Shown: positions 25,106 through 60,960, numbered from the stretch's first letter. The stretch: DNA of 64,000 bases from Patescibacteria group bacterium (GCA_018818405.1 JAHIRY010000047.1:2053-66052), one strand, 5' to 3'. Numbers and translations: made by a program. The notes: a model not told the origin generated them from the sequence alone.

Positions 25106-25134
25106 TTGACAAAATTGTGTTTTTTTGTTATAAT
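25106..25134 (+). promoter_or_regulatory. Consensus sigma-70-type promoter, TTGACA-17-TATAAT, for the downstream ncRNA
   Basis: ttgacaaaattgtgtttttttgttataat. Confidence 0.6.
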
Positions 25135-25138
25135 ATAG

Positions 25139-25580
25139 GTGTTCTTGGAGAACGGCCTGCCGGTGAGACCCAGCAATAAGCCGGACGATGAATCAATCGA
25201 TGAAGTTGGTAGAGGGGTGTCACCCTCGGAAATCCAGCGGAGGTTGGTTCGCGGAACTCTGAACTCGTCAATGCGGCCGGGATGACACCCGGCTGCAATA
25301 CCGCGCTTTTAAGAGCGCGCCCCGGTAGCGTCGGAAAGAATATCATAGGAAGCGAGCAGGAGATTGGGCAACACCCGCATCTTCCCACTCCCTGTTTTCG
25401 CTGAGGCGGAGAGCGATACTGGACGCGGGCCAGTGCTCTTCATTAGCGACCTATGAGAAATCATTCCGACATTGCAATAGTCCTGGGATGGACTTCGGGG
25501 GAGACTAAGGGGCAATCGTTCCCCAAGAACAGCTTCATCAGGGCGTTGATTTCACGATCGCGCCCTGAATTTTTTTTTGT
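25139..25580 (+). ncRNA. Structured ncRNA of about 440 nt, class unassigned, with paired 5' and 3' ends and an intrinsic terminator
   Basis: GC-rich island in an AT-rich genome. The 5' guucuuggagaacg pairs with the 3' cguuccccaagaac. There are many internal hairpins, such as gccgggaugacacccggc and cgcgcuuuuaagagcgcg. The terminator is cagggcg..cgcgccctg plus T9. Only short spurious ORFs are present on either strand. Confidence 0.55.
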
Positions 25581-30457: not shown

Positions 30458-30991
30458 ATGCGCGGTAATAATTTCGCTTATATTGATGGAAATAATTTAT
30501 ATAAAGGCGTAAAAAATTGCGGTTGGAGCATTGATTTTGCAAGATTTAGAAAATGGTTGGCAGATAAGTTTCATGTTGAGCGGGCATATTATTTCATTGG
30601 CATGATTTCCAAAGAAAAAGATTTATATGTTGCTTTGCAAAAAGCCGGTTTTACTTTAATTTTCAAGGAAGTGGTTTACGACGGACTGGGCAAACCAAAA
30701 GGCAATTGCGATGCGGATTTAGTATTGCAGTCGGTAATTGATGCCTTTGAAAATAATTGCGAAAATCAGATTTTGGTTTCCAGTGACGGCGATTATTCCG
30801 GATTGGCAAAATTTTTACATTCGAAAAATAAATTGAGAGGAATTTTGTCGCCGAGCAATTCTGACCGATGCTCAATTTTGTTGAAGAGATTAAATGTTCC
30901 GATTATTTTTTTGAATGATGTGAGAAAAAAAGTTCGTTTAAAAGAAAAAGCCCCCGTTAAGGACGAAACCTTAAAAGGGTCTTTTTCGTAG
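30458..30991 (+). CDS. NYN-domain (LabA-like) predicted ribonuclease
   Basis: IDGNNLY, GNCDADLV and SSDGDYSGL match the NYN/PIN-like acidic motifs. Confidence 0.65.
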   Translation: MRGNNFAYIDGNNLYKGVKNCGWSIDFARFRKWLADKFHVERAYYFIGMISKEKDLYVALQKAGFTLIFKEVVYDGLGKPKGNCDADLVLQSVIDAFENNCENQILVSSDGDYSGLAKFLHSKNKLRGILSPSNSDRCSILLKRLNVPIIFLNDVRKKVRLKEKAPVKDETLKGSFS

Positions 30992-31105: not shown

Positions 31106-31351
31106 ATGACGCAAAAATGTTTAAAATGCAGAGCGCCGATCAGCGGATTTCTCGGGAAGATCGCTCGGCTGGCCGGAGTGAAGCCGTCGGAGACAAAGCC
31201 GGGCTATTGCAACAAATGCGAAAATGAAGCGCCGGAAGTTTCAGCTCAGCCGCAGAATCCGCAAGCGCTTGAAAGTTCCGGAGCGATTGAATCCATTGCA
31301 AAACCCGCTCCGTTGGATTTGTTTGAAGAAGAACAAAAGAAAACGGAATAA
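31106..31351 (+). CDS. Small zinc-ribbon protein (CxxC...CxxC), hypothetical
   Basis: CLKC...CNKC pairs. The terminator hairpin gaaagaagcttctttc plus T-run follows at about 31366..31395. Confidence 0.4.
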   Translation: MTQKCLKCRAPISGFLGKIARLAGVKPSETKPGYCNKCENEAPEVSAQPQNPQALESSGAIESIAKPAPLDLFEEEQKKTE

Positions 31352-31447: not shown

Positions 31448-34009
31448 ATGCCGGAATTCACTCCCATGCAACGGCAATACAATGAAATAAAAGAAAAACA
31501 TCCGCAAGAAATTTTAATGTTTCGCTTGGGCGATTTTTATGAAATGTTCGGCGATGACGCGAAACAAGCTTCGAGCATTTTAAATATTGTTCTGACAGCC
31601 AGGCACAAAGGTTCTGAAAATGAAATGCCGATGTGCGGCGTCCCGCATCATGCGCTTGATAATTATTTGGTGAAATTGCTGAACGCGGGAAAGCGTGTGG
31701 CCATTTGTGAACAATTCGGCGATCCGTCTTTGCCCGGAATTGTGAAGCGGCAAGTGGCGCGCATTGTGACGCCCGGAACAACGCTCAATGATTCAGTCTT
31801 GAACAATAAAAAAAATAATTTTATTATCAGTTTGTTTTTGCAAAAAGATATTTGGGGATTGGCGCTGGCTGATCTGACCACCGGTGAATTCAAAGTGGCG
31901 GAAATTTCTGATTTGAATATATTGAAAAATGAAATTTTTCGTTTTCAAATTTCCGAGGCGATCGCGCCGAGTTCGCTGGGAAATGATGAGCGGCATCGGG
32001 ATTTTATCAATTCTTTGAATAATGTGAATTTTTTTCAATTGCAGCCGTATGAAAATGCTTGTCATGGTTTGACTGAACATTTTAAAATGAAAAATTTGCA
32101 GAGTTTTGGCATTGAAAATTTAAAAGCCGGAATCGAAGCCGCCGGAGCGTTGTTTGGATATTTGAAAGAAACTCAAAAAACGAATTTGGAACATATTACG
32201 AAAATCAGCCGTTACAATTTTGCGGATTTTATGGCATTGGACGAATCAACCATTCGCAATTTGGAACTTTTTCAAAATTCTTCCACCGGCGAATACAACG
32301 GCAGTTTTATTTCTATTATTGATAAAACCGTTACCGGACTCGGAGGAAGAAGATTGCGCCGCTGGCTCATGCTTCCGCTGGTAAATTCCGAGGAAATCAA
32401 TGCGCGGCTTTCCGCTGTCGCCGAAATAATTGAAGATCATTCGTTGATGAAAAATTTGAGCGAAGAATTGTCGCAAACGGCTGATCTCGAACGGCTGATG
32501 GGAAGAATCGGCTGCGGTCGAGCGACTGCGCGGGATTTGGTCGCTTTGAAAAACAGTTTGAATTTAATTCCGAAAATAAAAAATTTATTGAAAGAAAAAA
32601 AATCTCAGCTGTTGCGGGATTCTTTGACAGCGCTGGATGAATCGCCTGAATTGTTGAGATTGTTGGAGCAAGTTTTCGTCGATGAACCGCCGGCAAGCAT
32701 TCTCGAAGGAGGAATGATAAAAGACGGATACAATCCGGCGCTCGATGACTTGCGAACAATCGCGCGCGGCGGAAAAGATTGGCTGGCGAAATTCCAATCG
32801 CAAGAAATCGAACGAACCGGAATTTCTTCGTTGAAAGTTCGTTTTAACAGCGTTTTCGGATATTACATTGAAATCAGCAAAGCGAATTTGTCTCAGGTCC
32901 CGGCTGAATATTCCCGACGGCAAACATTGGTCAATGCCGAACGTTTCATTACTCCGGAATTAAAAGAATATGAAGATAAAATTTTGGGCGCTGAGGAAAA
33001 AATTTTCGCGTTGGAGCGTCAGATATTTTTGGAAACAGTGGAAAAGACTGTGAAACATTTTGAGAAAATTCAAATGTCAGCCGATGCGATTGCCGATCTG
33101 GATGTTTTTTTGAATTTCGCTCGCGTTTCTCTGGAAAATAATTATGTTTGTCCGACGGTGACTGACGGCGGAGAGCTTGCGATAAAAAATGGACGACATC
33201 CGGTAATTGAAAAATTTCAAAAAGAAAGATATGTGTCCAATGATTTGAAAATGGATCATAAAAAAAACGAATTGCTTTTGCTGACCGGTCCGAACATGAG
33301 CGGCAAGTCGAGTTTTCTCCGGCAAACCGCGTTGATTTGTCTCATGGCGCAGATTGGTTGCAATGTGCCGGCTGATGAAGCTGTTCTTTGCGCGGTTGAC
33401 CGTATTTTCACCAGAGTTGGCGCGTCTGACAATTTGACGCAGGGAGCTTCGACATTTATGGTGGAAATGCAGGAAGCGGCGAATATTCTGAATAATGCGA
33501 CTGAAAAATCATTGATAATTTTGGATGAACTCGGACGAGGCACTTCCACTTATGACGGCGTCAGCATTGCTTGGGCGATAATTGAATATTTGCACAATCA
33601 TTTGAGAGCGAAAACATTGTTCGCCACGCATTACCATGAACTGACGGAAATAATTGATAATTTGGAGCGCGCGGAAAATTATTGCGTGGCGGTGAGCGAG
33701 TCTCGGGGAAATGTGGTTTTTTTGCACAAAATTGTAAAAGGCGCAACTTCCCGGAGTTATGGCATTGAAGTGGCGAAATTGGCCGGATTGCCGCCGGAGA
33801 TTGTTCTCAGGGCAAATAATATTTTGGAAGATTTGGAAAATTCAAAGGAAATAAAGCTGGATAAAAAGGCGGAACAAGGAGCTTTGTTTTTGCCGGTTGA
33901 TAACAAGAAGGAAAAGGAATTGGCTGAGGAATTGAAAAAACTGGATATAAATTCATTGACTCCGCTTGAAGCGTTTCAGCGGATAGTTGATTGGAAAGAT
34001 AGATATTGA
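31448..34009 (+). CDS. mutS: DNA mismatch repair protein MutS
   Basis: Mismatch-binding N-terminus, Walker A GPNMSGKSS, HTH and dimerisation C-terminus, 853 aa. Confidence 0.9.
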   Translation: MPEFTPMQRQYNEIKEKHPQEILMFRLGDFYEMFGDDAKQASSILNIVLTARHKGSENEMPMCGVPHHALDNYLVKLLNAGKRVAICEQFGDPSLPGIVKRQVARIVTPGTTLNDSVLNNKKNNFIISLFLQKDIWGLALADLTTGEFKVAEISDLNILKNEIFRFQISEAIAPSSLGNDERHRDFINSLNNVNFFQLQPYENACHGLTEHFKMKNLQSFGIENLKAGIEAAGALFGYLKETQKTNLEHITKISRYNFADFMALDESTIRNLELFQNSSTGEYNGSFISIIDKTVTGLGGRRLRRWLMLPLVNSEEINARLSAVAEIIEDHSLMKNLSEELSQTADLERLMGRIGCGRATARDLVALKNSLNLIPKIKNLLKEKKSQLLRDSLTALDESPELLRLLEQVFVDEPPASILEGGMIKDGYNPALDDLRTIARGGKDWLAKFQSQEIERTGISSLKVRFNSVFGYYIEISKANLSQVPAEYSRRQTLVNAERFITPELKEYEDKILGAEEKIFALERQIFLETVEKTVKHFEKIQMSADAIADLDVFLNFARVSLENNYVCPTVTDGGELAIKNGRHPVIEKFQKERYVSNDLKMDHKKNELLLLTGPNMSGKSSFLRQTALICLMAQIGCNVPADEAVLCAVDRIFTRVGASDNLTQGASTFMVEMQEAANILNNATEKSLIILDELGRGTSTYDGVSIAWAIIEYLHNHLRAKTLFATHYHELTEIIDNLERAENYCVAVSESRGNVVFLHKIVKGATSRSYGIEVAKLAGLPPEIVLRANNILEDLENSKEIKLDKKAEQGALFLPVDNKKEKELAEELKKLDINSLTPLEAFQRIVDWKDRY

Positions 34010-34050
34010 GTGTAATTTTAGCTATTTGTATTCATTTGGTGTTATTGCTC

Positions 34051-34079
34051 TTGACAATAATTAATTTATGTGCTATAAT
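34051..34079 (+). promoter_or_regulatory. Consensus promoter TTGACA-17-TATAAT for the downstream ncRNA
   Basis: ttgacaataattaatttatgtgctataat. Confidence 0.6.
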
Positions 34080-34085
34080 TGTTTT

Positions 34086-34520
34086 ACAAGTTCGTTGATA
34101 ATAAAAAAAAGTGGTTTGGCTCCACCGTAAGGCTTCTCTCCCAGTCCCTGTATTCTTACATGGGCGCTGGATAAGAGATGGCCATGATAACGTGATTCTG
34201 AAGGTCGCATACCTGTCACCTGGCTTTTGCGGGTGACGGGTTGAGAGCGGCAATTGAGGAACGCGGAAAGTCGAGGTCTGGTCAACCTCGGCGATGGTTG
34301 CAAATCGCACCATTCAAAAGTCACCATACTGGCACGCGGAGTTTAGCTTCGCCAGGTATGGCGTTCGGCTGGTGGGATTTAAAATCTTATCAGCTGGCGA
34401 GTAAGTTGCCATCGAGCAACAATCGACAAGCGGGGCTTCGCATGTAGCATGTCTGTGAGATGTGCGAAACGAAGACTCCGGCCGGCGCGAATCCACATGG
34501 ATGCGCCGGTTCTTTTTTTG
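34086..34520 (+). ncRNA. Second structured ncRNA candidate, about 430 nt, class unassigned, between mutS and mutL
   Basis: GC-rich island covered only by overlapping short ORFs on both strands. Extended hairpins include accugucacc..ggugacgggu and ccauacugg..[gcggag..cuucgc]..ccagguaugg. The terminator is ccggcgcgaatccacatggatgcgccgg plus T-run. It contains a catgtagcatgt motif shared with the intergenic repeat family. Confidence 0.5.
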
Positions 34521-34571
34521 TTTTAAAAAGATAAATATGTTAAATTATAGCTGTGATAATTTTATTAATTT

Positions 34572-36374
34572 ATGAGCGAATCAAGAATAAATATTTTAGC
34601 TCCGCATCTTGTCAGCCAGATTGCGGCCGGTGAAGTGGTGGAGCGGCCTGCTTCGGTTGTAAAGGAATTGGTGGAAAATTCCATTGATGCCGGAGCAAAG
34701 AATATTGTGATGGAGATTGAAAACGGCGGTTTGAATTTGATTAAAATAGTTGATGATGGAATCGGCATGAATCGGGAGGATGCGGAAAAAAGCATTATTC
34801 AGCACGCTACCAGCAAGCTTTCCAATGAATCGGATTTGTACAAAATTTCCACGCTCGGTTTTCGCGGAGAGGCGTTGGCCAGTATTTCGGCGGTAAGTGA
34901 ATTCGAACTTTTGACCAAGGATGATGAATCGGTTGCCGGAACTTCAATTTCAGTGAAAAGCAATGAAGTTTGCGTGAATGATGCCGGATGCGCGAAGGGA
35001 ACTTCGATCAGCGTGAAAAATTTATTTTATAATATTCCGGCCAGAAAAAAATATTTGAAAACAGCGATCACGGAGTTCAACCATATTGTTGATCTTTTTT
35101 TTAATTATTGTTTGGCTTTTCCCGAGATTTCCTGGAAATTGATGCACAATAATAAAGTAATTTATCATTTTCCGCCGGCAGCGTGGATTCAGCGAATCAA
35201 TGATGTTCTTGGCGAGGAAATTATTAAAAATTTGTTGCAAATCGATTTAAAATTGAACGGCATTGTTATTAACGGCTACATCGGCCGGCCTCAGATCAGC
35301 CGCAACAATCGGAAATTGCAATTTTTATTTATCAACAATCGTCCGGTAAACGAATTTGTCGTTTCAAAACAAATCAAAGACGCTTATTCGACATTGATTT
35401 CAAAAGATTTGTATCCGGTTTATCTGCTGAATTTGGAAATCGATCCGGAAAAAATCGATGTCAATGTTCATCCTCGAAAATTGGAAGTGCGATTTTCCGA
35501 ACCGCAAATCATTTATCGAACAATGTATCAGGTTGTCAGCCGAGTTCTTGATGAAAATGATCTGACAATGAGAATGGAAAGCAATGAAAATAAAACATTT
35601 ATTCCATTGAAAGAAGTTTTGGCGGAGACGCAGGTGAGAATCCCCGTGGTCAGTCGATCAATACCGCCAATATCTTGGTCAAAGCCGGTTGCCGGAAATA
35701 ATCCGTTTGTTCCGAAATCGCAAGTTTATAAGCAACCGGCTGCATTGGATTTTTCGAAAAATTTATTGAAGCAATCGGAAGCCGTTCCTGAAGTTGAATC
35801 CTGTAAAATTTTGGGACAAGCGCAGAATTCATATATTATTGTTGAATTCAAAGAAGGAATTAGAATTTATGATCAGCACGCCTGTTCCGAACGAATCCAA
35901 TATGAGAAGATAAAAAATCAATGGCAGATCGGCAAGCTCGCCAGCCAGAAAAAGTTGTTGCCTGAAACAATCGAATTGACGCCGACCGAAGCGCGATTGA
36001 TCAATGATAATCAAGAAGTATTTGAACGGCTGGGTTATGATGTTTCCGGATTCGGCGGTAATACTTTCGTGATTTCAGCGATTCCGCAGTTTTTAATAAA
36101 TGAGAATCAGAAAGAAGTTATTTTGGAAATAATCGGCAATTTAACAGAATCGGAAATTTTGGAAAATGAAATTGTCGGACCTTTGGACAAAATTTTCAAA
36201 ATGATGTCTTGCAAGAGCGCGATCAAATTCGGCCAGCCGTTGATGCCGTTGGAAATTTCCGCGTTGATTTCTGAAATTGAAAGTCTGCCGAATCATTATA
36301 CTTGCGTTCATGGCCGTCCTTGCGTTATTGAATTTTCGATGAATGAATTGGAGAAAATGTTTAAACGAAAATAA
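34572..36374 (+). CDS. mutL: DNA mismatch repair protein MutL
   Basis: GHKL ATPase N-terminus (AAGEVVERPASVVKELVENSIDA) and the C-terminal dimerisation domain, 600 aa. Confidence 0.9.
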   Translation: MSESRINILAPHLVSQIAAGEVVERPASVVKELVENSIDAGAKNIVMEIENGGLNLIKIVDDGIGMNREDAEKSIIQHATSKLSNESDLYKISTLGFRGEALASISAVSEFELLTKDDESVAGTSISVKSNEVCVNDAGCAKGTSISVKNLFYNIPARKKYLKTAITEFNHIVDLFFNYCLAFPEISWKLMHNNKVIYHFPPAAWIQRINDVLGEEIIKNLLQIDLKLNGIVINGYIGRPQISRNNRKLQFLFINNRPVNEFVVSKQIKDAYSTLISKDLYPVYLLNLEIDPEKIDVNVHPRKLEVRFSEPQIIYRTMYQVVSRVLDENDLTMRMESNENKTFIPLKEVLAETQVRIPVVSRSIPPISWSKPVAGNNPFVPKSQVYKQPAALDFSKNLLKQSEAVPEVESCKILGQAQNSYIIVEFKEGIRIYDQHACSERIQYEKIKNQWQIGKLASQKKLLPETIELTPTEARLINDNQEVFERLGYDVSGFGGNTFVISAIPQFLINENQKEVILEIIGNLTESEILENEIVGPLDKIFKMMSCKSAIKFGQPLMPLEISALISEIESLPNHYTCVHGRPCVIEFSMNELEKMFKRK

Positions 36375-49197: not shown

Positions 49198-49198
49198 T

Positions 49199-50184
49199 TT
49201 TTTCAGGGAGCAATTAGCAAGGAGCAGGGAGCACTACTCATGTATCATATAACATGTAGCATGTAACAAAAATCGATATTGAAATCCTGAATTTCGTAGA
49301 GGCGCAAAATCTTGCGTCTGCGATTCAATTAAAATGAAATTCTAACAAAAAACCGTCCGGAGAATTATCCGGACGGGGAGCGAGCGATGCGGTTTAGCCA
49401 AGGCTGACCGCATTTTTTGCGATATTGCGGGCAACTGAATCGAGTACGAGACTAACGACTAAATGTTTGCAAGTTTCAGCGAGTTGACGCAAAAAAGCGG
49501 CTCTTTCATGATTGCGCGAATCTCTCAGTACTTCGAGCGCGTCAATCAAATTGGCGCATTGCCTCGGATAATCGACAGAACTTTGAGAAATTTCATTGAG
49601 ACGCAAAATCGTTTCTTCCACCAGATTTTGCGCTTCCTGATATTTGTCGGCCATAATGTCCCTCCGTTGTTCGTCCCTTCTAATAATAAATTTAACATCA
49701 GCCGGCATATTTTGTCAATTTATAATTTGCTTGTGATTTAGTATTTCGAATTTATAATTTGTAATTTATGATTTCGAGCTTGTTTAGAATTTCGAATTTA
49801 GGATTTAGTATTTGGAATTTGTCCCGCAGCGTGCGGGATCCCGCTCACAGCGGCGATTTAGTATTTCGGATTTAGGATTTCACCAGTGTTCCCTGATTAG
49901 TGCTCCTTGTTCCTTGCCGTAGGTTGCTGCCACCGCAGCGTGCGGGGTTCCGCTCACAGCGGGACGAATTCGCCACCGCAGCGTGCGGGGTCCCGTCTCA
50001 CAGCGGGACGAATCATCACTAATTCTCCACCGCAGCGTGCGGGATCCCGCCCGCGGCGGGACGAATTATAATTTCGCAATTTAAGATTCATATTTTGTTA
50101 CATGCGAAGTGCTCCCTGCTCCCTGCTGATTGCTCCCTGCCAAGTGCTCCTTGCTCCCTGTTCAAAAAATCTGGGGATAAACGT
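49199..50184. repeat. Mosaic intergenic repeat region R1 upstream of the mraZ promoter
   Basis: The modules, in both orientations, are a GC hairpin unit (ccaccgcagcgtgcgggg.cccgctcacagcggg, tandem x4 at 49930..50068 plus one at 49822), agggagcac/gtgctccctg units (49203-49240, 49884-49915, 50108-50160), a catgtagcatgtaaca unit (49240-49270) and AT-rich (a)aatcctaaat/tttaggatt units (49737-49880). Confidence 0.75.
49394..49654 (-). CDS. Hypothetical 86-aa helical protein embedded in repeat region R1
   Basis: SD GGAGG lies 6 nt upstream of the ATG at 49652-49654. A dedicated minus-strand terminator (ccgtccggagaattatccggacgg plus U-run) follows the stop. The track ORF extends to 49708 without an SD. 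Confidence 0.5.
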   Translation of the reverse strand: MADKYQEAQNLVEETILRLNEISQSSVDYPRQCANLIDALEVLRDSRNHERAAFLRQLAETCKHLVVSLVLDSVARNIAKNAVSLG

Positions 50185-57215: not shown

Positions 57216-57545
57216 AGATTTGGCATGTAGCACACTTCCCCTAGATGCGACTCGGGACAGGCTTTCAGGCTCAGTGTGACAATTAATAAATCCTAAATCC
57301 TAAATACGAAATACTAAAAAAAATTACAAATTCGAAATTTCAAATACCAAGTAAATTATAATTCGTCTGCCCCGCACGCTGCGGCGGTGGCAATTTAAAT
57401 CAAGTAAATCAGTAGCAGATCAGTATATCACATGGAATGTCTCATGTGATAAAAGTTCAAATGGCTAATAAGCTAAGAAGCTACAAGCTAATAAGTCAAT
57501 CTTGTAAAACCGTGCAAAACTGATATACTGAATTTCATTAAACCA
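57216..57545. repeat. Mosaic intergenic repeat region R2 between ftsI and murF
   Basis: Contains the catgtagcac unit, aatcctaaatcctaaatacgaaatactaaa, accaagtaaattataattcgtctgccccgcacgctgcggcggtgg (the inverted GC unit), gctaagaagctacaagctaataag, a palindrome atcacatg..catgtgat and a murF promoter candidate. Confidence 0.7.
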
Positions 57546-58847
57546 TTGAAAAAATTACATAATATGAAAAAAATATTGGAAAGAATATTGGCGTCATGCG
57601 CCGAATCGATTTTGAAAAAATATCATCCGCGAGTGATCGGCATTACCGGCAGTATTGGCAAGACTTCGGCCAAGGAGGCGATTTATGCTGTGTTGAACAC
57701 CAAATTTAATGTTCGGGAAAATAAAAAAAATTATAACAATGAAATCGGCGTTCCGCTGACCGTTATCGACGCTGAGTCAGGCGGGAATTCAATTCTTGGT
57801 TGGATGAAAGTTTTTCGAAAAGCGATCAAATTGATTTACGGAGAAAATAAAAATTATCCGGAAATATTGATCATGGAAATGGGAGCGGATAAGCCCGGAG
57901 ATATTGAATATTTGGTGAACATTGCGCCTTGCAATATCGGAGTGGTGACGACTATCGGGCCGACGCATTTGCAAGCTTTCGGAACAGTGGAAAAAGTTGC
58001 CAGAGAAAAACAAAAAATTGTGAGCCATCTGAACAAAGACGGCGTCGCGATTTTGAATTATGATGATTTGTTGGTTCGGAAAATGGCGGAAAAGACAAAA
58101 GCGAAAGTTGTTTTTTTCGGTTATTCGGAAAAAGCGGATATTCATTCGGTTGATCTGGCGAATCATGGCGTGACAATGGATTTGCAAGGAATAAAATTTA
58201 AAATTTCCGACGGCCGAAGTTCTGTGCCGGTTTTTCTGCCCGGAGTGGTCGGCATTCATCAGATTAATTCCGCGCTCATTGCCGCGGCTGTGGGAAATTC
58301 CCTCGGAATGAATTTGATCGATGTTTCCATCGGATTGAAAAATTATCGGGCGCCAAAAGGAAGAATGAATTTGATCGAAGGAATTGAAAACAGTTTGATG
58401 ATTGATGATACTTACAATTCATCGCCAAAAGCGGCGGCAGCCGCGTTGGAAACCTTGGCAAAGTTGAATATTTCCGATGCTCGGAGAAAAGTGGCGATTT
58501 TGGGCGATATGCTGGAACTGGGAACTTTTTCAGAACAAGCGCATTATGAATTGGGAAAATCTGTGGCGGATTTGAAAATAGATTTTTTGATTTGCGCGGG
58601 AAATATGAGGCACAAAATAGTTCAGGGCGCAATGGAAAACGGTTTTTCCGGCGACAATATTGTTGAATTCCGCGATTCGGTCGAGGCTGGACAAACCGTG
58701 CGAAATTTGATAAAGTCCAATGAATTGATTTTGGTAAAAGGCTCGCAAGGCGCAAGAATGGAACTCATTGTAAAAGCGTTGATGCGCAATCCGGAAGACG
58801 CGAAAAAATTGTTGGTGAGGCAGACGGGAGAGTGGATTAAGAGTTAG
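57546..58847 (+). CDS. murF: UDP-MurNAc-tripeptide--D-Ala-D-Ala ligase MurF
   Basis: Mur ligase P-loop GITGSIGKTS plus the middle and C-terminal Mur ligase domains, 433 aa. Confidence 0.85.
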   Translation: MKKLHNMKKILERILASCAESILKKYHPRVIGITGSIGKTSAKEAIYAVLNTKFNVRENKKNYNNEIGVPLTVIDAESGGNSILGWMKVFRKAIKLIYGENKNYPEILIMEMGADKPGDIEYLVNIAPCNIGVVTTIGPTHLQAFGTVEKVAREKQKIVSHLNKDGVAILNYDDLLVRKMAEKTKAKVVFFGYSEKADIHSVDLANHGVTMDLQGIKFKISDGRSSVPVFLPGVVGIHQINSALIAAAVGNSLGMNLIDVSIGLKNYRAPKGRMNLIEGIENSLMIDDTYNSSPKAAAAALETLAKLNISDARRKVAILGDMLELGTFSEQAHYELGKSVADLKIDFLICAGNMRHKIVQGAMENGFSGDNIVEFRDSVEAGQTVRNLIKSNELILVKGSQGARMELIVKALMRNPEDAKKLLVRQTGEWIKS

Positions 58848-59069
58848 TTGCCACCACCGCAGCGTGCGGGGCAGGCGAATTATCTTTTGTGATTTGTGAT
58901 TTCGAGCTTGTCCCGCAGCGTGCGGGATCCCGCTCACAGCGGTGATTTAGGCTTTAGTATTTAGAATTTAGGATTTTAATTGTGCTACATGTTATATGTT
59001 ATATGAGCAGTGTTCCATGATTAGTGTTCCCTGATTAGTGCTCCCTGACAAGTGCTCCCTGAAAATCAC
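58848..59069. repeat. Mosaic intergenic repeat region R3 between murF and tRNA-Glu
   Basis: Two GC hairpin units (58852-58875 and 58907-58940), the AT-rich tttaggattt units, gtgctacatgttatatg and gtgctccctg x3 units. Confidence 0.7.
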
Positions 59070-60446: not shown

Positions 60447-60960
60447 TAAAATAAAAAAAGTAATTCATAAAAAGGCGCGGGAAAGAATTGTTTGTGACAA
60501 AAGCATGGACAAATAATCCTTTCCTCAGCCAAAAAAATTAATCTTATGTCAAAAAGAAAAGTTCGATCAATAGTAAGAAAATTTACCGGATTTTGGGAGG
60601 ATTTGACGATTAATGTGTGAGTTGTTGCAAGGAACAATCAGCAAGGAGCAGGGAACACTAATCATGTAGCATGTAACAATTCGCAGGGAGCAAGGAGCAC
60701 TAATCAGGGAACCCCGCCCTTCGCGAAGAGCGGGGGAACACAATTTAATTCCTAAATCCGAAATTCCAAACACCAAGTAAATTATAATTCGCCTGCCCCG
60801 CACGCTGCGGTGGCAGCAACCTACGGCAAGGAACAAGGAACACTAATAGGGGATCACAATATCAAATAGTTCGAAAGGTTTATAAATAGCTAAGAAGCTA
60901 TTTATCCCGCCCGCGGCGGGAATGAGCTACAAGCTAAAAAGCTAATTCGTAACAATTATA
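60447..60960. repeat. Mosaic intergenic repeat region R4 between lexA and the dinB-coupled ORF
   Basis: 60625-60690 is about 85 percent identical to 49203-49270. 60768-60815 is the same segment as 57336-57385. 60797-60847 is the reverse complement of 49897-49945. Also present are cccgcccgcggcggg and gagctacaagctaaaaagcta units. Confidence 0.75.

What the first reader, a model, noticed from the sequence alone, without database searches (positions are those of the whole stretch)
34051..34520. Second unclassified structured RNA between mutS and mutL
Again a consensus promoter and a roughly 430-nt GC-rich, ORF-poor segment with long nested hairpins. One is a 10-bp stem accugucacc/ggugacgggu. Another is ccauacugg..[gcggag..cuucgc]..ccagguaugg. 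It ends with a compound terminator. It contains ggaaagucgagg, which is reminiscent of but not identical to the RNase P P4 strand. It also contains a catgtagcatgt motif shared with the mosaic repeat family. Two independent large ncRNA loci in 64 kb is unusual. One of them may be the organism's RNase P or tmRNA in a divergent form.
Basis: seen in the sequence. Interest (0 to 1): 0.6.

Follow-up and report, generated by a model that had tools for sequence, protein, structure and literature searches.

The report
Orphan structured RNA gene between mutS and mutL
A candidate-phyla-radiation bacterium carries, between its mutS and mutL repair genes, a self-contained gene for a roughly 435-base, tightly folded non-coding RNA that matches no known RNA family, is not RNase P or tmRNA, and is absent from or replaced by unrelated inserts in every relative examined.

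Summary
At 34051-34520 there is a perfect sigma-70 promoter (TTGACA-17-TGcTATAAT). It is followed by a 435-nt, 51% GC segment (window 40.6%) and a hairpin-plus-U-tract terminator. The segment folds into about 17 helices at -182.8 kcal/mol (z = -6.4). It has no codon periodicity and no ORF with a real homologue.

The RNase P/tmRNA idea is not supported. Rfam 15 gives nothing even at E<=10, ARAGORN finds no tmRNA, and the GGAAAGUC string sits in local hairpins with no P4 partner.

The host is a Falkowbacteria-like Patescibacterium whose nearest MutL is only 60% identical. I examined the mutS-mutL junction in ten other lineages. Three have the genes abutting with no insert. Three carry unrelated protein genes. 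Four carry other GC-rich promoter-terminator RNA units with no detectable sequence or motif similarity to this one. One of those other RNA families shows real covariation, but its module is absent here.

Best reading: an independently transcribed, lineage-specific accessory structured RNA in a variable hot spot, function unknown, probably trans-acting. It is a singleton, so its structure cannot yet be tested by covariation. Interest is moderate to low.

The parts
31448..34009 (+). mutS (853 aa), the upstream flanking gene
   Evidence: ORF. MutS domains I-V are recorded on the identical contig L045.
34051..34056 (+). -35 hexamer TTGACA
34071..34079 (+). Extended -10, TGcTATAAT
   Evidence: 12 of 12 hexamer positions match and TG is present; 4 exact matches in the window against 0.02 expected.
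34086..34520 (+). Predicted 435-nt non-coding transcript. The start is inferred as the A seven nt after the -10. The end is the end of the U-tract.
   Evidence: MFE -182.8 kcal/mol, z = -6.44. 140 pairs, 22 of them G-U. 3-nt periodicity signal 0.98 against a coding median of 3.3. No Rfam match.
34090..34099 (+). 5' strand of the long-range closing helix (GUUCGUUGAU). It pairs with 34422-34431.
   Evidence: The MFE structure pairs 34094-34099 with 34422-34427, mean pair probability 0.68. Read by eye from the sequence, it extends to 10 positions with one C-A mismatch.
34131..34183 (+). Hairpin 2, a 21-bp interrupted stem
   Evidence: -25.4 kcal/mol, z = -4.2. Pair probabilities 0.96-0.99.
34191..34265 (+). 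Long composite hairpin. It contains the 12-bp stem ACCUGUCACCUG/CGGGUGACGGGU (34211-34241).
   Evidence: -36.4 kcal/mol, z = -5.5. Also.
34270..34314 (+). Two short hairpins (34270-34292 and 34293-34314). The first begins with the GUCGAGG part of the 'GGAAAGUCGAGG' string.
34324..34361 (+). Hairpin CCAUACU..[GCGGAGU/GCUUCGC]..GGUAUGG
   Evidence: -15.8 kcal/mol, z = -3.8.
34362..34399 (+). 17-bp hairpin with 5 G-U pairs. These pairs make the structure specific to the plus strand.
   Evidence: -18.7 kcal/mol, z = -5.6. Also.
34422..34431 (+). 3' strand of the closing helix (AUCGACAAGC)
34431..34480 (+). 3' hairpin holding the 12-mer CATGTAGCATGT (34441-34452), which is shared with the window's mosaic intergenic repeats
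   Evidence: -20.6 kcal/mol, z = -3.8. The 12-mer occurs 3 times against 0.08 expected.
34481..34520 (+). Intrinsic terminator: 8-bp GC stem with an inner 4-bp hairpin (34481-34510), followed by UUCUUUUUUU
   Evidence: -19.6 kcal/mol, z = -3.7. Sequence.
34552..34560 (+). Possible weak extended -10 (TGTGATAAT) for mutL, downstream of the terminator. This is inference only.
   Evidence: Read from the sequence. The promoter scan did not report it. A comparable TGTGCTAAGGT follows the RNA terminator in L047, L132 and L139.
34572..36374 (+). mutL (600 aa), the downstream flanking gene

Best explanation
The region 34051-34520 is a self-contained gene for a non-coding RNA of about 435 nt.

Shown:
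- A consensus sigma-70 promoter with an extended -10.
- A non-coding, GC-rich body.
- A predicted fold of about 17 helices. Eight hairpin domains are enclosed by a 5'-3' closing helix, and two further 3' hairpins follow.
- The last of those hairpins is an intrinsic terminator.
- The fold is markedly better on the plus strand, which carries 22 G-U pairs.

Also shown: the RNA is lineage-specific. The mutS-mutL junction of Falkowbacteria-like Patescibacteria is a variable hot spot. In different lineages it holds nothing, unrelated protein genes, or other unrelated GC-rich RNA units.

Inferred: the transcript is made at a high level and is stable. It acts in trans, as a multi-hairpin regulatory or protein-binding RNA, rather than as a housekeeping ribozyme or a leader of mutL. 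mutL is probably transcribed from a weak extended -10 just downstream of the terminator, or by read-through. The molecular target is unknown.
For: - Promoter: 12/12 plus TG. Exact matches occur 4 times against 0.02 expected, and two of the four drive the two GC-rich units.
- Fold: z = -6.44 on the plus strand against -4.48 on the minus strand. 140 pairs with 22 G-U, and most helices have pair probability above 0.88. Each hairpin is individually significant. The region is a plus-strand outlier after GC correction across the window.
- Non-coding: no 3-nt periodicity (0.98 against a coding median of 3.3 and a 10th percentile of 1.8). No Pfam hits for the five longest ORFs. The longest ORF has no real homologue among 1.84 billion representatives.
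- Not a known family.
- Lineage-specific hot spot: no insert in L137/138, L136 and L133-135. Protein ORFs in L046, L050/051 and L141. Other RNA units in L049, L047/L132/L139 and L140.
- The other RNA units are real RNAs. An 80-nt module in L047/L139/L132 has 6 of 20 pairs with compensatory changes.
- Own terminator, followed by a plausible separate -10 before mutL. An analogous conserved TGTGCTAAGGT lies downstream of the RNA terminators in L047, L132 and L139.
Against: - There is only one sequence. The second assembly, L045, is 100% identical. No covariation test of this RNA's structure is therefore possible.
- No expression data could be consulted.
- No homologue was found anywhere: relatives' spacers, phages and plasmids, and IMG/VR by an exact 29-mer.
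- GC-rich inserts in an AT-rich genome can fold well without being functional RNAs.
- No target or binding motif was identified. No k-mer is shared with the analogous RNAs apart from the terminator T-tracts.
Confidence: 0.6

Rival explanations
1. Selfish or decaying insertion. On this reading it is a piece of foreign or mobile GC-rich DNA, for example a degenerate relative of the genome's mosaic intergenic repeats. It landed in a permissive hot spot and carries hairpins, a promoter and a terminator, but the transcript has no organismal function.
For: - The locus is a variable hot spot with unrelated cargo in different lineages.
- The unit shares the exact 12-mer CATGTAGCATGT with the mosaic repeats.
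- It turns over fast: even L047 and L139, whose MutL proteins are 90% identical, align over only about 224 nt of their RNAs.
- No homologue of this RNA was found.
Against: - Apart from the 12-mer, it is single-copy in the 64-kb window.
- No convincing terminal inverted repeats or target-site duplication were seen. The best flanking direct repeat, 13/14 at 34060 and 34564, is about what I estimate by hand for AT-rich sequence.
- A perfect promoter, a clean terminator and 17 helices with 22 G-U pairs on the transcribed strand look maintained rather than decaying.
Confidence: 0.17
2. Cis-acting leader of mutL. The strong promoter, the long structured 5' region and a leaky or regulated terminator together set mutL expression, now that the insert has uncoupled mutL from mutS.
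For: - mutS and mutL abut in relatives, with gaps of 4, 21 and 61 nt. They are presumably co-transcribed there.
- In this genome the unit sits 51 nt upstream of mutL on the same strand.
- No strong promoter lies between the terminator and mutL.
Against: - The terminator is strong (-19.6 kcal/mol plus a U-tract), and no alternative anti-terminator pairing is apparent.
- A TGTGATAAT extended -10 lies between the terminator and the ATG.
- In L047, L132 and L139 a conserved TGTGCTAAGGT follows the RNA terminator.
- Equivalent units elsewhere are not tied to mutL. One lies at 25.1 kb in this window, and three lie in tandem in L140.
Confidence: 0.12
3. A highly divergent housekeeping RNA: RNase P RNA, tmRNA, SRP RNA or 6S RNA.
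For: - The size (about 435 nt), the GC-richness and the P1-like closing helix fit.
- It contains GGAAAGUC, similar to the P4 5' strand.
- Patescibacterial (CPR) RNase P RNAs are known to fall below Rfam thresholds (PMC8172020).
Against: - No match to RF00010, RF00011, tmRNA, SRP or 6S models even at E<=10 on a 671-nt search.
- ARAGORN is negative.
- GGAAAGUC is used in local structure, and I saw no complementary 3' strand when reading the sequence.
- There is no tRNA-like 3' end.
- Relatives at the same locus have no RNA or a non-homologous one, and no conserved core is shared. Even the diverged CPR RNase P RNAs in PMC8172020 were still found with the Rfam model at lowered thresholds.
Confidence: 0.03
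4. One or more small protein-coding genes, or an antisense (minus-strand) transcript, rather than a plus-strand non-coding RNA.
For: - ORFs of 93, 84 and 60 aa on the minus strand, and 68 and 41 aa on the plus strand, exist.
- The minus strand has a terminator-like hairpin at 34126-34110. It also has a TATAAT at 34549-34544, read from the sequence.
Against: - No codon periodicity.
- No Pfam hits.
- The only HMMER hit is an artefact. A weak match of 24-28 bits is summed over 9 identical tandem repeats of a low-complexity pseudo-protein.
- Gene callers called nothing here on the identical contig L045.
- The minus strand folds 40 kcal/mol worse.
- The only perfect promoter is on the plus strand.
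Confidence: 0.04

Closest known systems
Large multi-hairpin trans-acting regulatory RNAs such as Staphylococcus aureus RNAIII (514 nt). This comparison rests on my own knowledge.
   Same: Both have their own strong promoter and intrinsic terminator. Both are about 0.4-0.5 kb long, with many independent hairpins organised by a long-range 5'-3' helix. Both are lineage-restricted.
   Different: - No sequence or covariance-model similarity.
- No embedded peptide gene.
- The hairpin loops are not C-rich anti-Shine-Dalgarno loops.
- Targets are unknown and there is no experimental evidence.
Bacterial RNase P RNA (Rfam RF00010 and RF00011), including the diverged CPR forms described in PMC8172020
   Same: Similar length, GC-rich in an AT-rich genome, a closing P1-like helix, and the octamer GGAAAGUC.
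   Different: - No covariance-model match at E<=10.
- No P4 3' strand and no conserved regions CR-I to CR-V.
- Not conserved at all among relatives.
Large bacterial RNAs of unknown or recently studied function: OLE, GOLLD, ROOL, HEARO, raiA (all in Rfam)
   Same: Large, highly structured, non-coding, and detected as GC-rich intergenic islands.
   Different: - None of their models match.
- Those are families with many members and covariation support. This one is a singleton.
The GC-rich RNA upstream of mutL in related Patescibacteria (L047, L139, L132)
   Same: Same genomic position (immediately upstream of mutL) and same orientation. Consensus promoter and strong terminator. 55-61% GC. 440-700 nt.
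   Different: - That family is defined by an 80-nt covarying module (CCGCRCC...GGCAUCCCGUG...CGACGGGCACCUGUC...GGYGCGG).
- A covariance model of the module finds it 5 times in those loci but not in the window.
- Similarity to the window is limited to the promoter.
Polymorphic regions next to mismatch-repair genes, for example the enterobacterial mutS-rpoS region. This comparison rests on my own knowledge.
   Same: In both cases the junction next to mutS is a hot spot whose content differs between close lineages.
   Different: The enterobacterial case involves protein-gene cassettes between mutS and rpoS. Here the junction is mutS-mutL, and the cargo is often structured RNA genes.

Membership tests
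RNase P RNA (bacterial type A/B) | Match to the Rfam covariance models RF00010 or RF00011. Diverged CPR forms are still found at lowered thresholds. | tested here: not met
   No hit at the gathering threshold or at E<=10 on 33950-34620 with permissive filters. The precedent for lowered thresholds is PMC8172020.
RNase P RNA (bacterial type A/B) | Long-range P4 helix formed by the conserved GGAAAGUCC 5' strand and a complementary 3' strand near the 3' end | tested here: not met
   GGAAAGUC lies at about 34265-34272. Its GUC begins a local hairpin at 34270-34292. I saw no CGACUU-type partner when reading the sequence; no pattern search was run.
RNase P RNA (bacterial type A/B) | Conserved core sequence shared among related organisms | tested here: not met
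   No similarity to any RNA or spacer of relatives beyond the promoter.
tmRNA | tRNA-like domain (acceptor and T-arm) plus a tag-peptide reading frame | tested here: not met
   ARAGORN found only tRNA-Glu in the window. No Rfam tmRNA hit. The 3' end is an intrinsic terminator.
6S RNA / SRP RNA | Match to the Rfam models. 6S should be rod-like with a central bubble. SRP should have the domain IV motif. | tested here: not met
   No hits. The predicted fold is multi-branched, not rod-like.
OLE / GOLLD / ROOL / HEARO / raiA large RNAs | Match to the family covariance model | tested here: not met
   No hits in Rfam 15 at the gathering threshold or at E<=10.
mutL-upstream RNA family of L047/L139/L132 | 80-nt covarying module (model R1) | tested here: not met
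   R1 scores 82-95 bits on its members and 23.7 bits on a second L139 copy. It has no hit at E<=10 in the window.
Riboswitch or attenuator leader of mutL | Mutually exclusive terminator and anti-terminator structures, and dependence of the downstream gene on read-through | tested here: inconclusive
   No alternative pairing for the terminator 5' strand was seen by eye. A possible separate -10 lies at 34552-34560. Transcript mapping is not available.
Dispersed repeat or miniature mobile element (REP, BOX, MITE-like) | Multiple copies in the genome, and terminal repeats or a target-site duplication | tested here: inconclusive
   Only the 12-mer CATGTAGCATGT recurs in the 64-kb window. The flanking direct repeats are at roughly chance level by my hand estimate. 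The rest of the genome could not be searched.
Independently transcribed structured non-coding RNA (generic kind) | Own promoter and terminator, non-coding, and a fold more stable than composition explains | tested here: met
Independently transcribed structured non-coding RNA (generic kind) | Structure supported by covariation, and a transcript detected | not testable with these tools
   Only one distinct sequence exists (L045 is identical). No expression data are available.

The most novel reading that the evidence does not exclude
In Falkowbacteria-like Patescibacteria, the mutS-mutL junction (that is, the region upstream of mutL) is a dedicated landing site. Large, fast-diversifying, GC-rich structured RNAs with no sequence homology to each other are recurrently installed there under consensus promoters. 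They would form a functional class defined by architecture and locus rather than by sequence. Possible roles include modulating mismatch-repair expression, or acting in the episymbiont-host or phage interplay. The window's 435-nt RNA would be one member.
Probability: 0.12. Interest if true: 0.7.

Novelty: new member of a known kind. Interest (0 to 1): 0.35.

Why it matters
Non-coding RNAs of candidate-phyla-radiation bacteria are almost unexplored; my four paper searches found no study of them apart from a report of diverged RNase P RNAs. This locus shows that their small, AT-rich genomes carry strongly promoted, highly structured RNAs of 0.4-0.7 kb that current family libraries do not recognise. 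It also shows that these RNAs turn over very fast at a hot spot next to the mismatch-repair genes. If such RNAs prove functional, they would be a new source of large RNA classes. They would also affect genome annotation and completeness checks, because they should not be mistaken for RNase P. As a single orphan sequence with no expression or covariation evidence, the finding is a lead rather than a discovery.

Tried and rejected
1. Rfam at the gathering threshold and at E<=10 on both GC-rich loci and on five relatives' loci gave only noise.

2. ARAGORN found no tmRNA.

3. The genome-contig scan with MutL returned only distant MutL at 30-43% identity, from Bacteroidota and similar groups, because the exact 8-mer peptide patterns were too specific. 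It was no use for synteny.

It was no use either.

5. blastn, nhmmer and Smith-Waterman comparison of the spacer against all relatives' spacers showed only promoter similarity.

6. A shared k-mer search among the nine RNA units found only terminator T-tracts.

7. The covariance model R1 of the relatives' module is absent from the window.

8. blastn against phages and plasmids, and an exact 29-mer search of IMG/VR, found nothing.

9. Coding tests were negative.
 - Pfam on 5 ORFs gave nothing.
 - HMMER of the 93-aa ORF against 1.84 billion representatives gave one hit, P0121. It is an artefact of nine identical tandem repeats.
 - tblastn of the ORFs that occupy the spot in relatives against the spacer gave nothing.

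10. I first thought mutL in L132 abutted the RNA terminator, which would have implied a leader. I rejected this because the called start is 22 codons too early. The conserved MNKIKLL start lies 66 nt further downstream.

11. The 13/14 direct repeat ATTAATTTATG(T/A)GC at 34060 and 34564 was considered as a possible target-site duplication. I judged it to be about what chance gives in AT-rich sequence (my hand estimate). Deleting the interval would also not restore a sensible junction.

12. The 24-nt similarity between the two window RNAs (z about 3) lies in different structural contexts and was discounted.

13. Four paper searches found no description of such RNAs in Patescibacteria, only diverged RNase P.

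Full report
**What is there**

The window comes from a Patescibacteria (candidate phyla radiation) genome close to Candidatus Falkowbacteria. Its MutL is 100% identical to a protein named 'Patescibacteria group bacterium' in NCBI. The next-best MutL in a 5.8-billion-protein collection is only 59-60% identical, and many of the named best hits are called Falkowbacteria or Parcubacteria.

mutS (31448-34009) and mutL (34572-36374) lie on the plus strand, separated by 562 nt. Within that spacer:
- The promoter scan finds TTGACA, a 17-nt spacer and TATAAT, with TG before the -10, scoring 12/12. The exact pattern occurs four times in 64 kb against 0.02 expected.
- GC rises to 51-55% against 40.6% for the window.
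- The segment ends in a GC stem (34481-34510, -19.6 kcal/mol) followed by UUCUUUUUUU.

**Is it more than chance?**

- The 435-nt transcript predicted from 34086 to 34520 folds at -182.8 kcal/mol, z = -6.44, and no shuffle reaches it.
- The reverse complement folds 40 kcal/mol worse, z = -4.5. This is explained by 22 G-U pairs among the 140 pairs of the plus-strand fold.
- Each of eight separately folded hairpins has z from -2.8 to -5.6.
- After regressing MFE on GC for all 300-nt windows, seven consecutive windows over this locus are plus-strand outliers.
- The predicted architecture is a 9-of-10 closing helix (34090-34099 with 34422-34431). It encloses eight hairpin domains, followed by a 50-nt hairpin and the terminator.

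**Coding or not**

- The segment has no 3-nt periodicity. The signal is 0.98, against a median of 3.3 and a 10th percentile of 1.8 for coding windows of the same genome.
- The five longest ORFs have no Pfam match.
- An exhaustive HMMER search of the longest ORF (93 aa, minus strand) against 1.84 billion representatives returned one hit. It is a low-complexity tandem-repeat pseudo-protein, in which a weak match of 24-28 bits is counted nine times.
- Gene callers placed no gene here on the identical contig L045.
- I conclude it is non-coding.

**Known families**

- Rfam 15 finds only a tRNA in the whole window at gathering thresholds. It finds only noise at E<=10 on the 671-nt region.
- ARAGORN finds no tmRNA.
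- CPR RNase P RNAs can be diverged (PMC8172020). However, those were still recovered with the Rfam model at lowered thresholds, and here nothing appears.
- The GGAAAGUC octamer is not part of a long-range P4. GAAA is a linker, and GUCGAGGU is the 5' strand of a local hairpin.
- I saw no complementary 3' strand when reading the sequence.
- The look-alike unit at 25106-25580 is also negative.
- The RNase P/tmRNA reading is therefore not supported for either locus.

**Relatives**

My two single-use scans of genome and metagenome collections with MutL returned only distant homologues and were wasted. Exact-protein look-ups of MutL relatives gave the syntenic region in ten other lineages:
- mutS and mutL abut, with gaps of 4, 21 and 61 nt and no insert, in P0006, P0005 and P0014.
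- Unrelated protein ORFs fill the gap in P0003, P0011 and P0012.
- GC-rich promoter-to-terminator units fill it in P0010 (L049, about 465 nt), the P0002/P0015/P0048 lineage (L047 about 440 nt, L132 about 600 nt, L139 about 700 nt; counted as one lineage in the totals) and P0009 (L140, three tandem units of 100-210 nt plus a 78-aa ORF).

None of these has detectable similarity to the window's RNA beyond the promoter hexamers. No k-mer is shared among the independent units except terminator T-tracts. None matches Rfam.

The L047/L139/L132 RNAs are demonstrably structured RNAs. They share an 80-nt module in which 6 of 20 pairs show compensatory changes. A covariance model of it finds five copies in those loci but none in the window, L049 or L140.

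Even within that family only the first roughly 220 nt and a few modules align between genomes whose MutL proteins are 90% identical. These RNAs therefore evolve by rapid module gain and loss.

The window's RNA is also not a decayed copy of the ORFs found at this spot elsewhere. It has no match in phage or plasmid collections or in IMG/VR.

**Interpretation**

The evidence supports an independent, lineage-specific, non-coding structured RNA gene sitting in a variable hot spot next to the mismatch-repair genes.

That it is a separate unit rather than a mutL leader is suggested by three things, but not proven:
- Its strong terminator.
- A TGTGATAAT extended -10 between the terminator and the mutL start (34552-34560).
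- A conserved TGTGCTAAGGT in the same position in L047, L132 and L139.

An apparent direct abutment of the terminator and mutL in L132 proved to be a mis-called start.

By analogy with large multi-hairpin regulators such as RNAIII (my own knowledge), I consider a trans-acting regulatory or protein-binding role most likely. No target, motif or expression evidence exists. With a single sequence, the structure cannot be tested by covariation.

The main rival is a functionless or selfish insertion in a permissive site. This is hinted at by the shared 12-mer with the genome's mosaic intergenic repeats and by the hot-spot behaviour.

**Novelty and score**

This is a new, unclassified member of a known kind: bacterial stand-alone structured RNAs of unknown function. 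The more interesting pattern is that non-homologous GC-rich RNAs recur at the same junction across lineages. That pattern is real in this small sample, but its meaning is open. Interest 0.35.

Noticed in passing
window 25106-25580 (+): A second stand-alone GC-rich unit: a perfect TTGACA-17-TATAAT promoter, about 441 nt at 55% GC, MFE -192.5 kcal/mol, a 5'-3' closing helix (GUUCUUGG/CCAAGAAC) and a terminator at about 25540-25580. It has no Rfam match at E<=10, no codon periodicity, and no significant similarity to the 34-kb RNA.
   Followed up: partly
window 15470-15700: The strongest folding outlier in the window on both strands (GC-corrected z about -5). It is intergenic and includes a near-perfect 48-nt palindrome, aaaatattttgtaaagacgcatggccatgcgtctttacaaaatatttt, plus further inverted repeats.
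   Followed up: no
window 49198-49269, 49797-50153, 57288-57407, 58847-59061, 60622-60833: A family of mosaic intergenic repeats built from short units (AGTGCTCCCTG, CCACCGCAGCGTGCGGGG hairpins, GGATTTAG-type AT-rich units, CATGTAGCATGT). One block lies just upstream of tRNA-Glu (59070). The 12-mer CATGTAGCATGT also sits in the 3' hairpin of the RNA studied here.
   Followed up: partly
window 31033-30935 (-): A perfect consensus promoter on the minus strand (31033-31005). It points into the 3' end of the plus-strand gene 30458-30991, followed by a hairpin and a T-run. It is a candidate antisense RNA of about 60 nt, or a bidirectional terminator region.
   Followed up: no
window 31106-31351 (+): A small GC-rich ORF (81 aa) with two CxxC pairs, just upstream of mutS, followed by a terminator. 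It looks like a real small zinc-ribbon-like protein rather than an RNA, although its periodicity signal is only borderline at 1.8.
   Followed up: no
L047 303-382 and 521-601; L139 2292-2371 and 2795-2876; L132 223-304: An 80-nt structured module (CCGCRCC...GGCAUCCCGUG...CGACGGGCACCUGUC...GGYGCGG) occurs once or twice in the RNAs upstream of mutL in related Patescibacteria. 6 of its 20 pairs covary and it has no Rfam match. It is a candidate new RNA motif.
   Followed up: partly
L140 1860-2470: Three tandem small promoter-hairpin-terminator units (about 210, 100 and 170 nt) and a 78-aa Cys-rich ORF lie between mutS and mutL of another relative. None is recognised by Rfam.
   Followed up: no
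window 11867-12375 and 17227-17451: Tandem repeats: 117-nt units (3-4 copies at 66-71% identity) and 45-nt units (5 copies). I did not check their reading-frame context; from the sequences they may encode repetitive protein segments.
   Followed up: no
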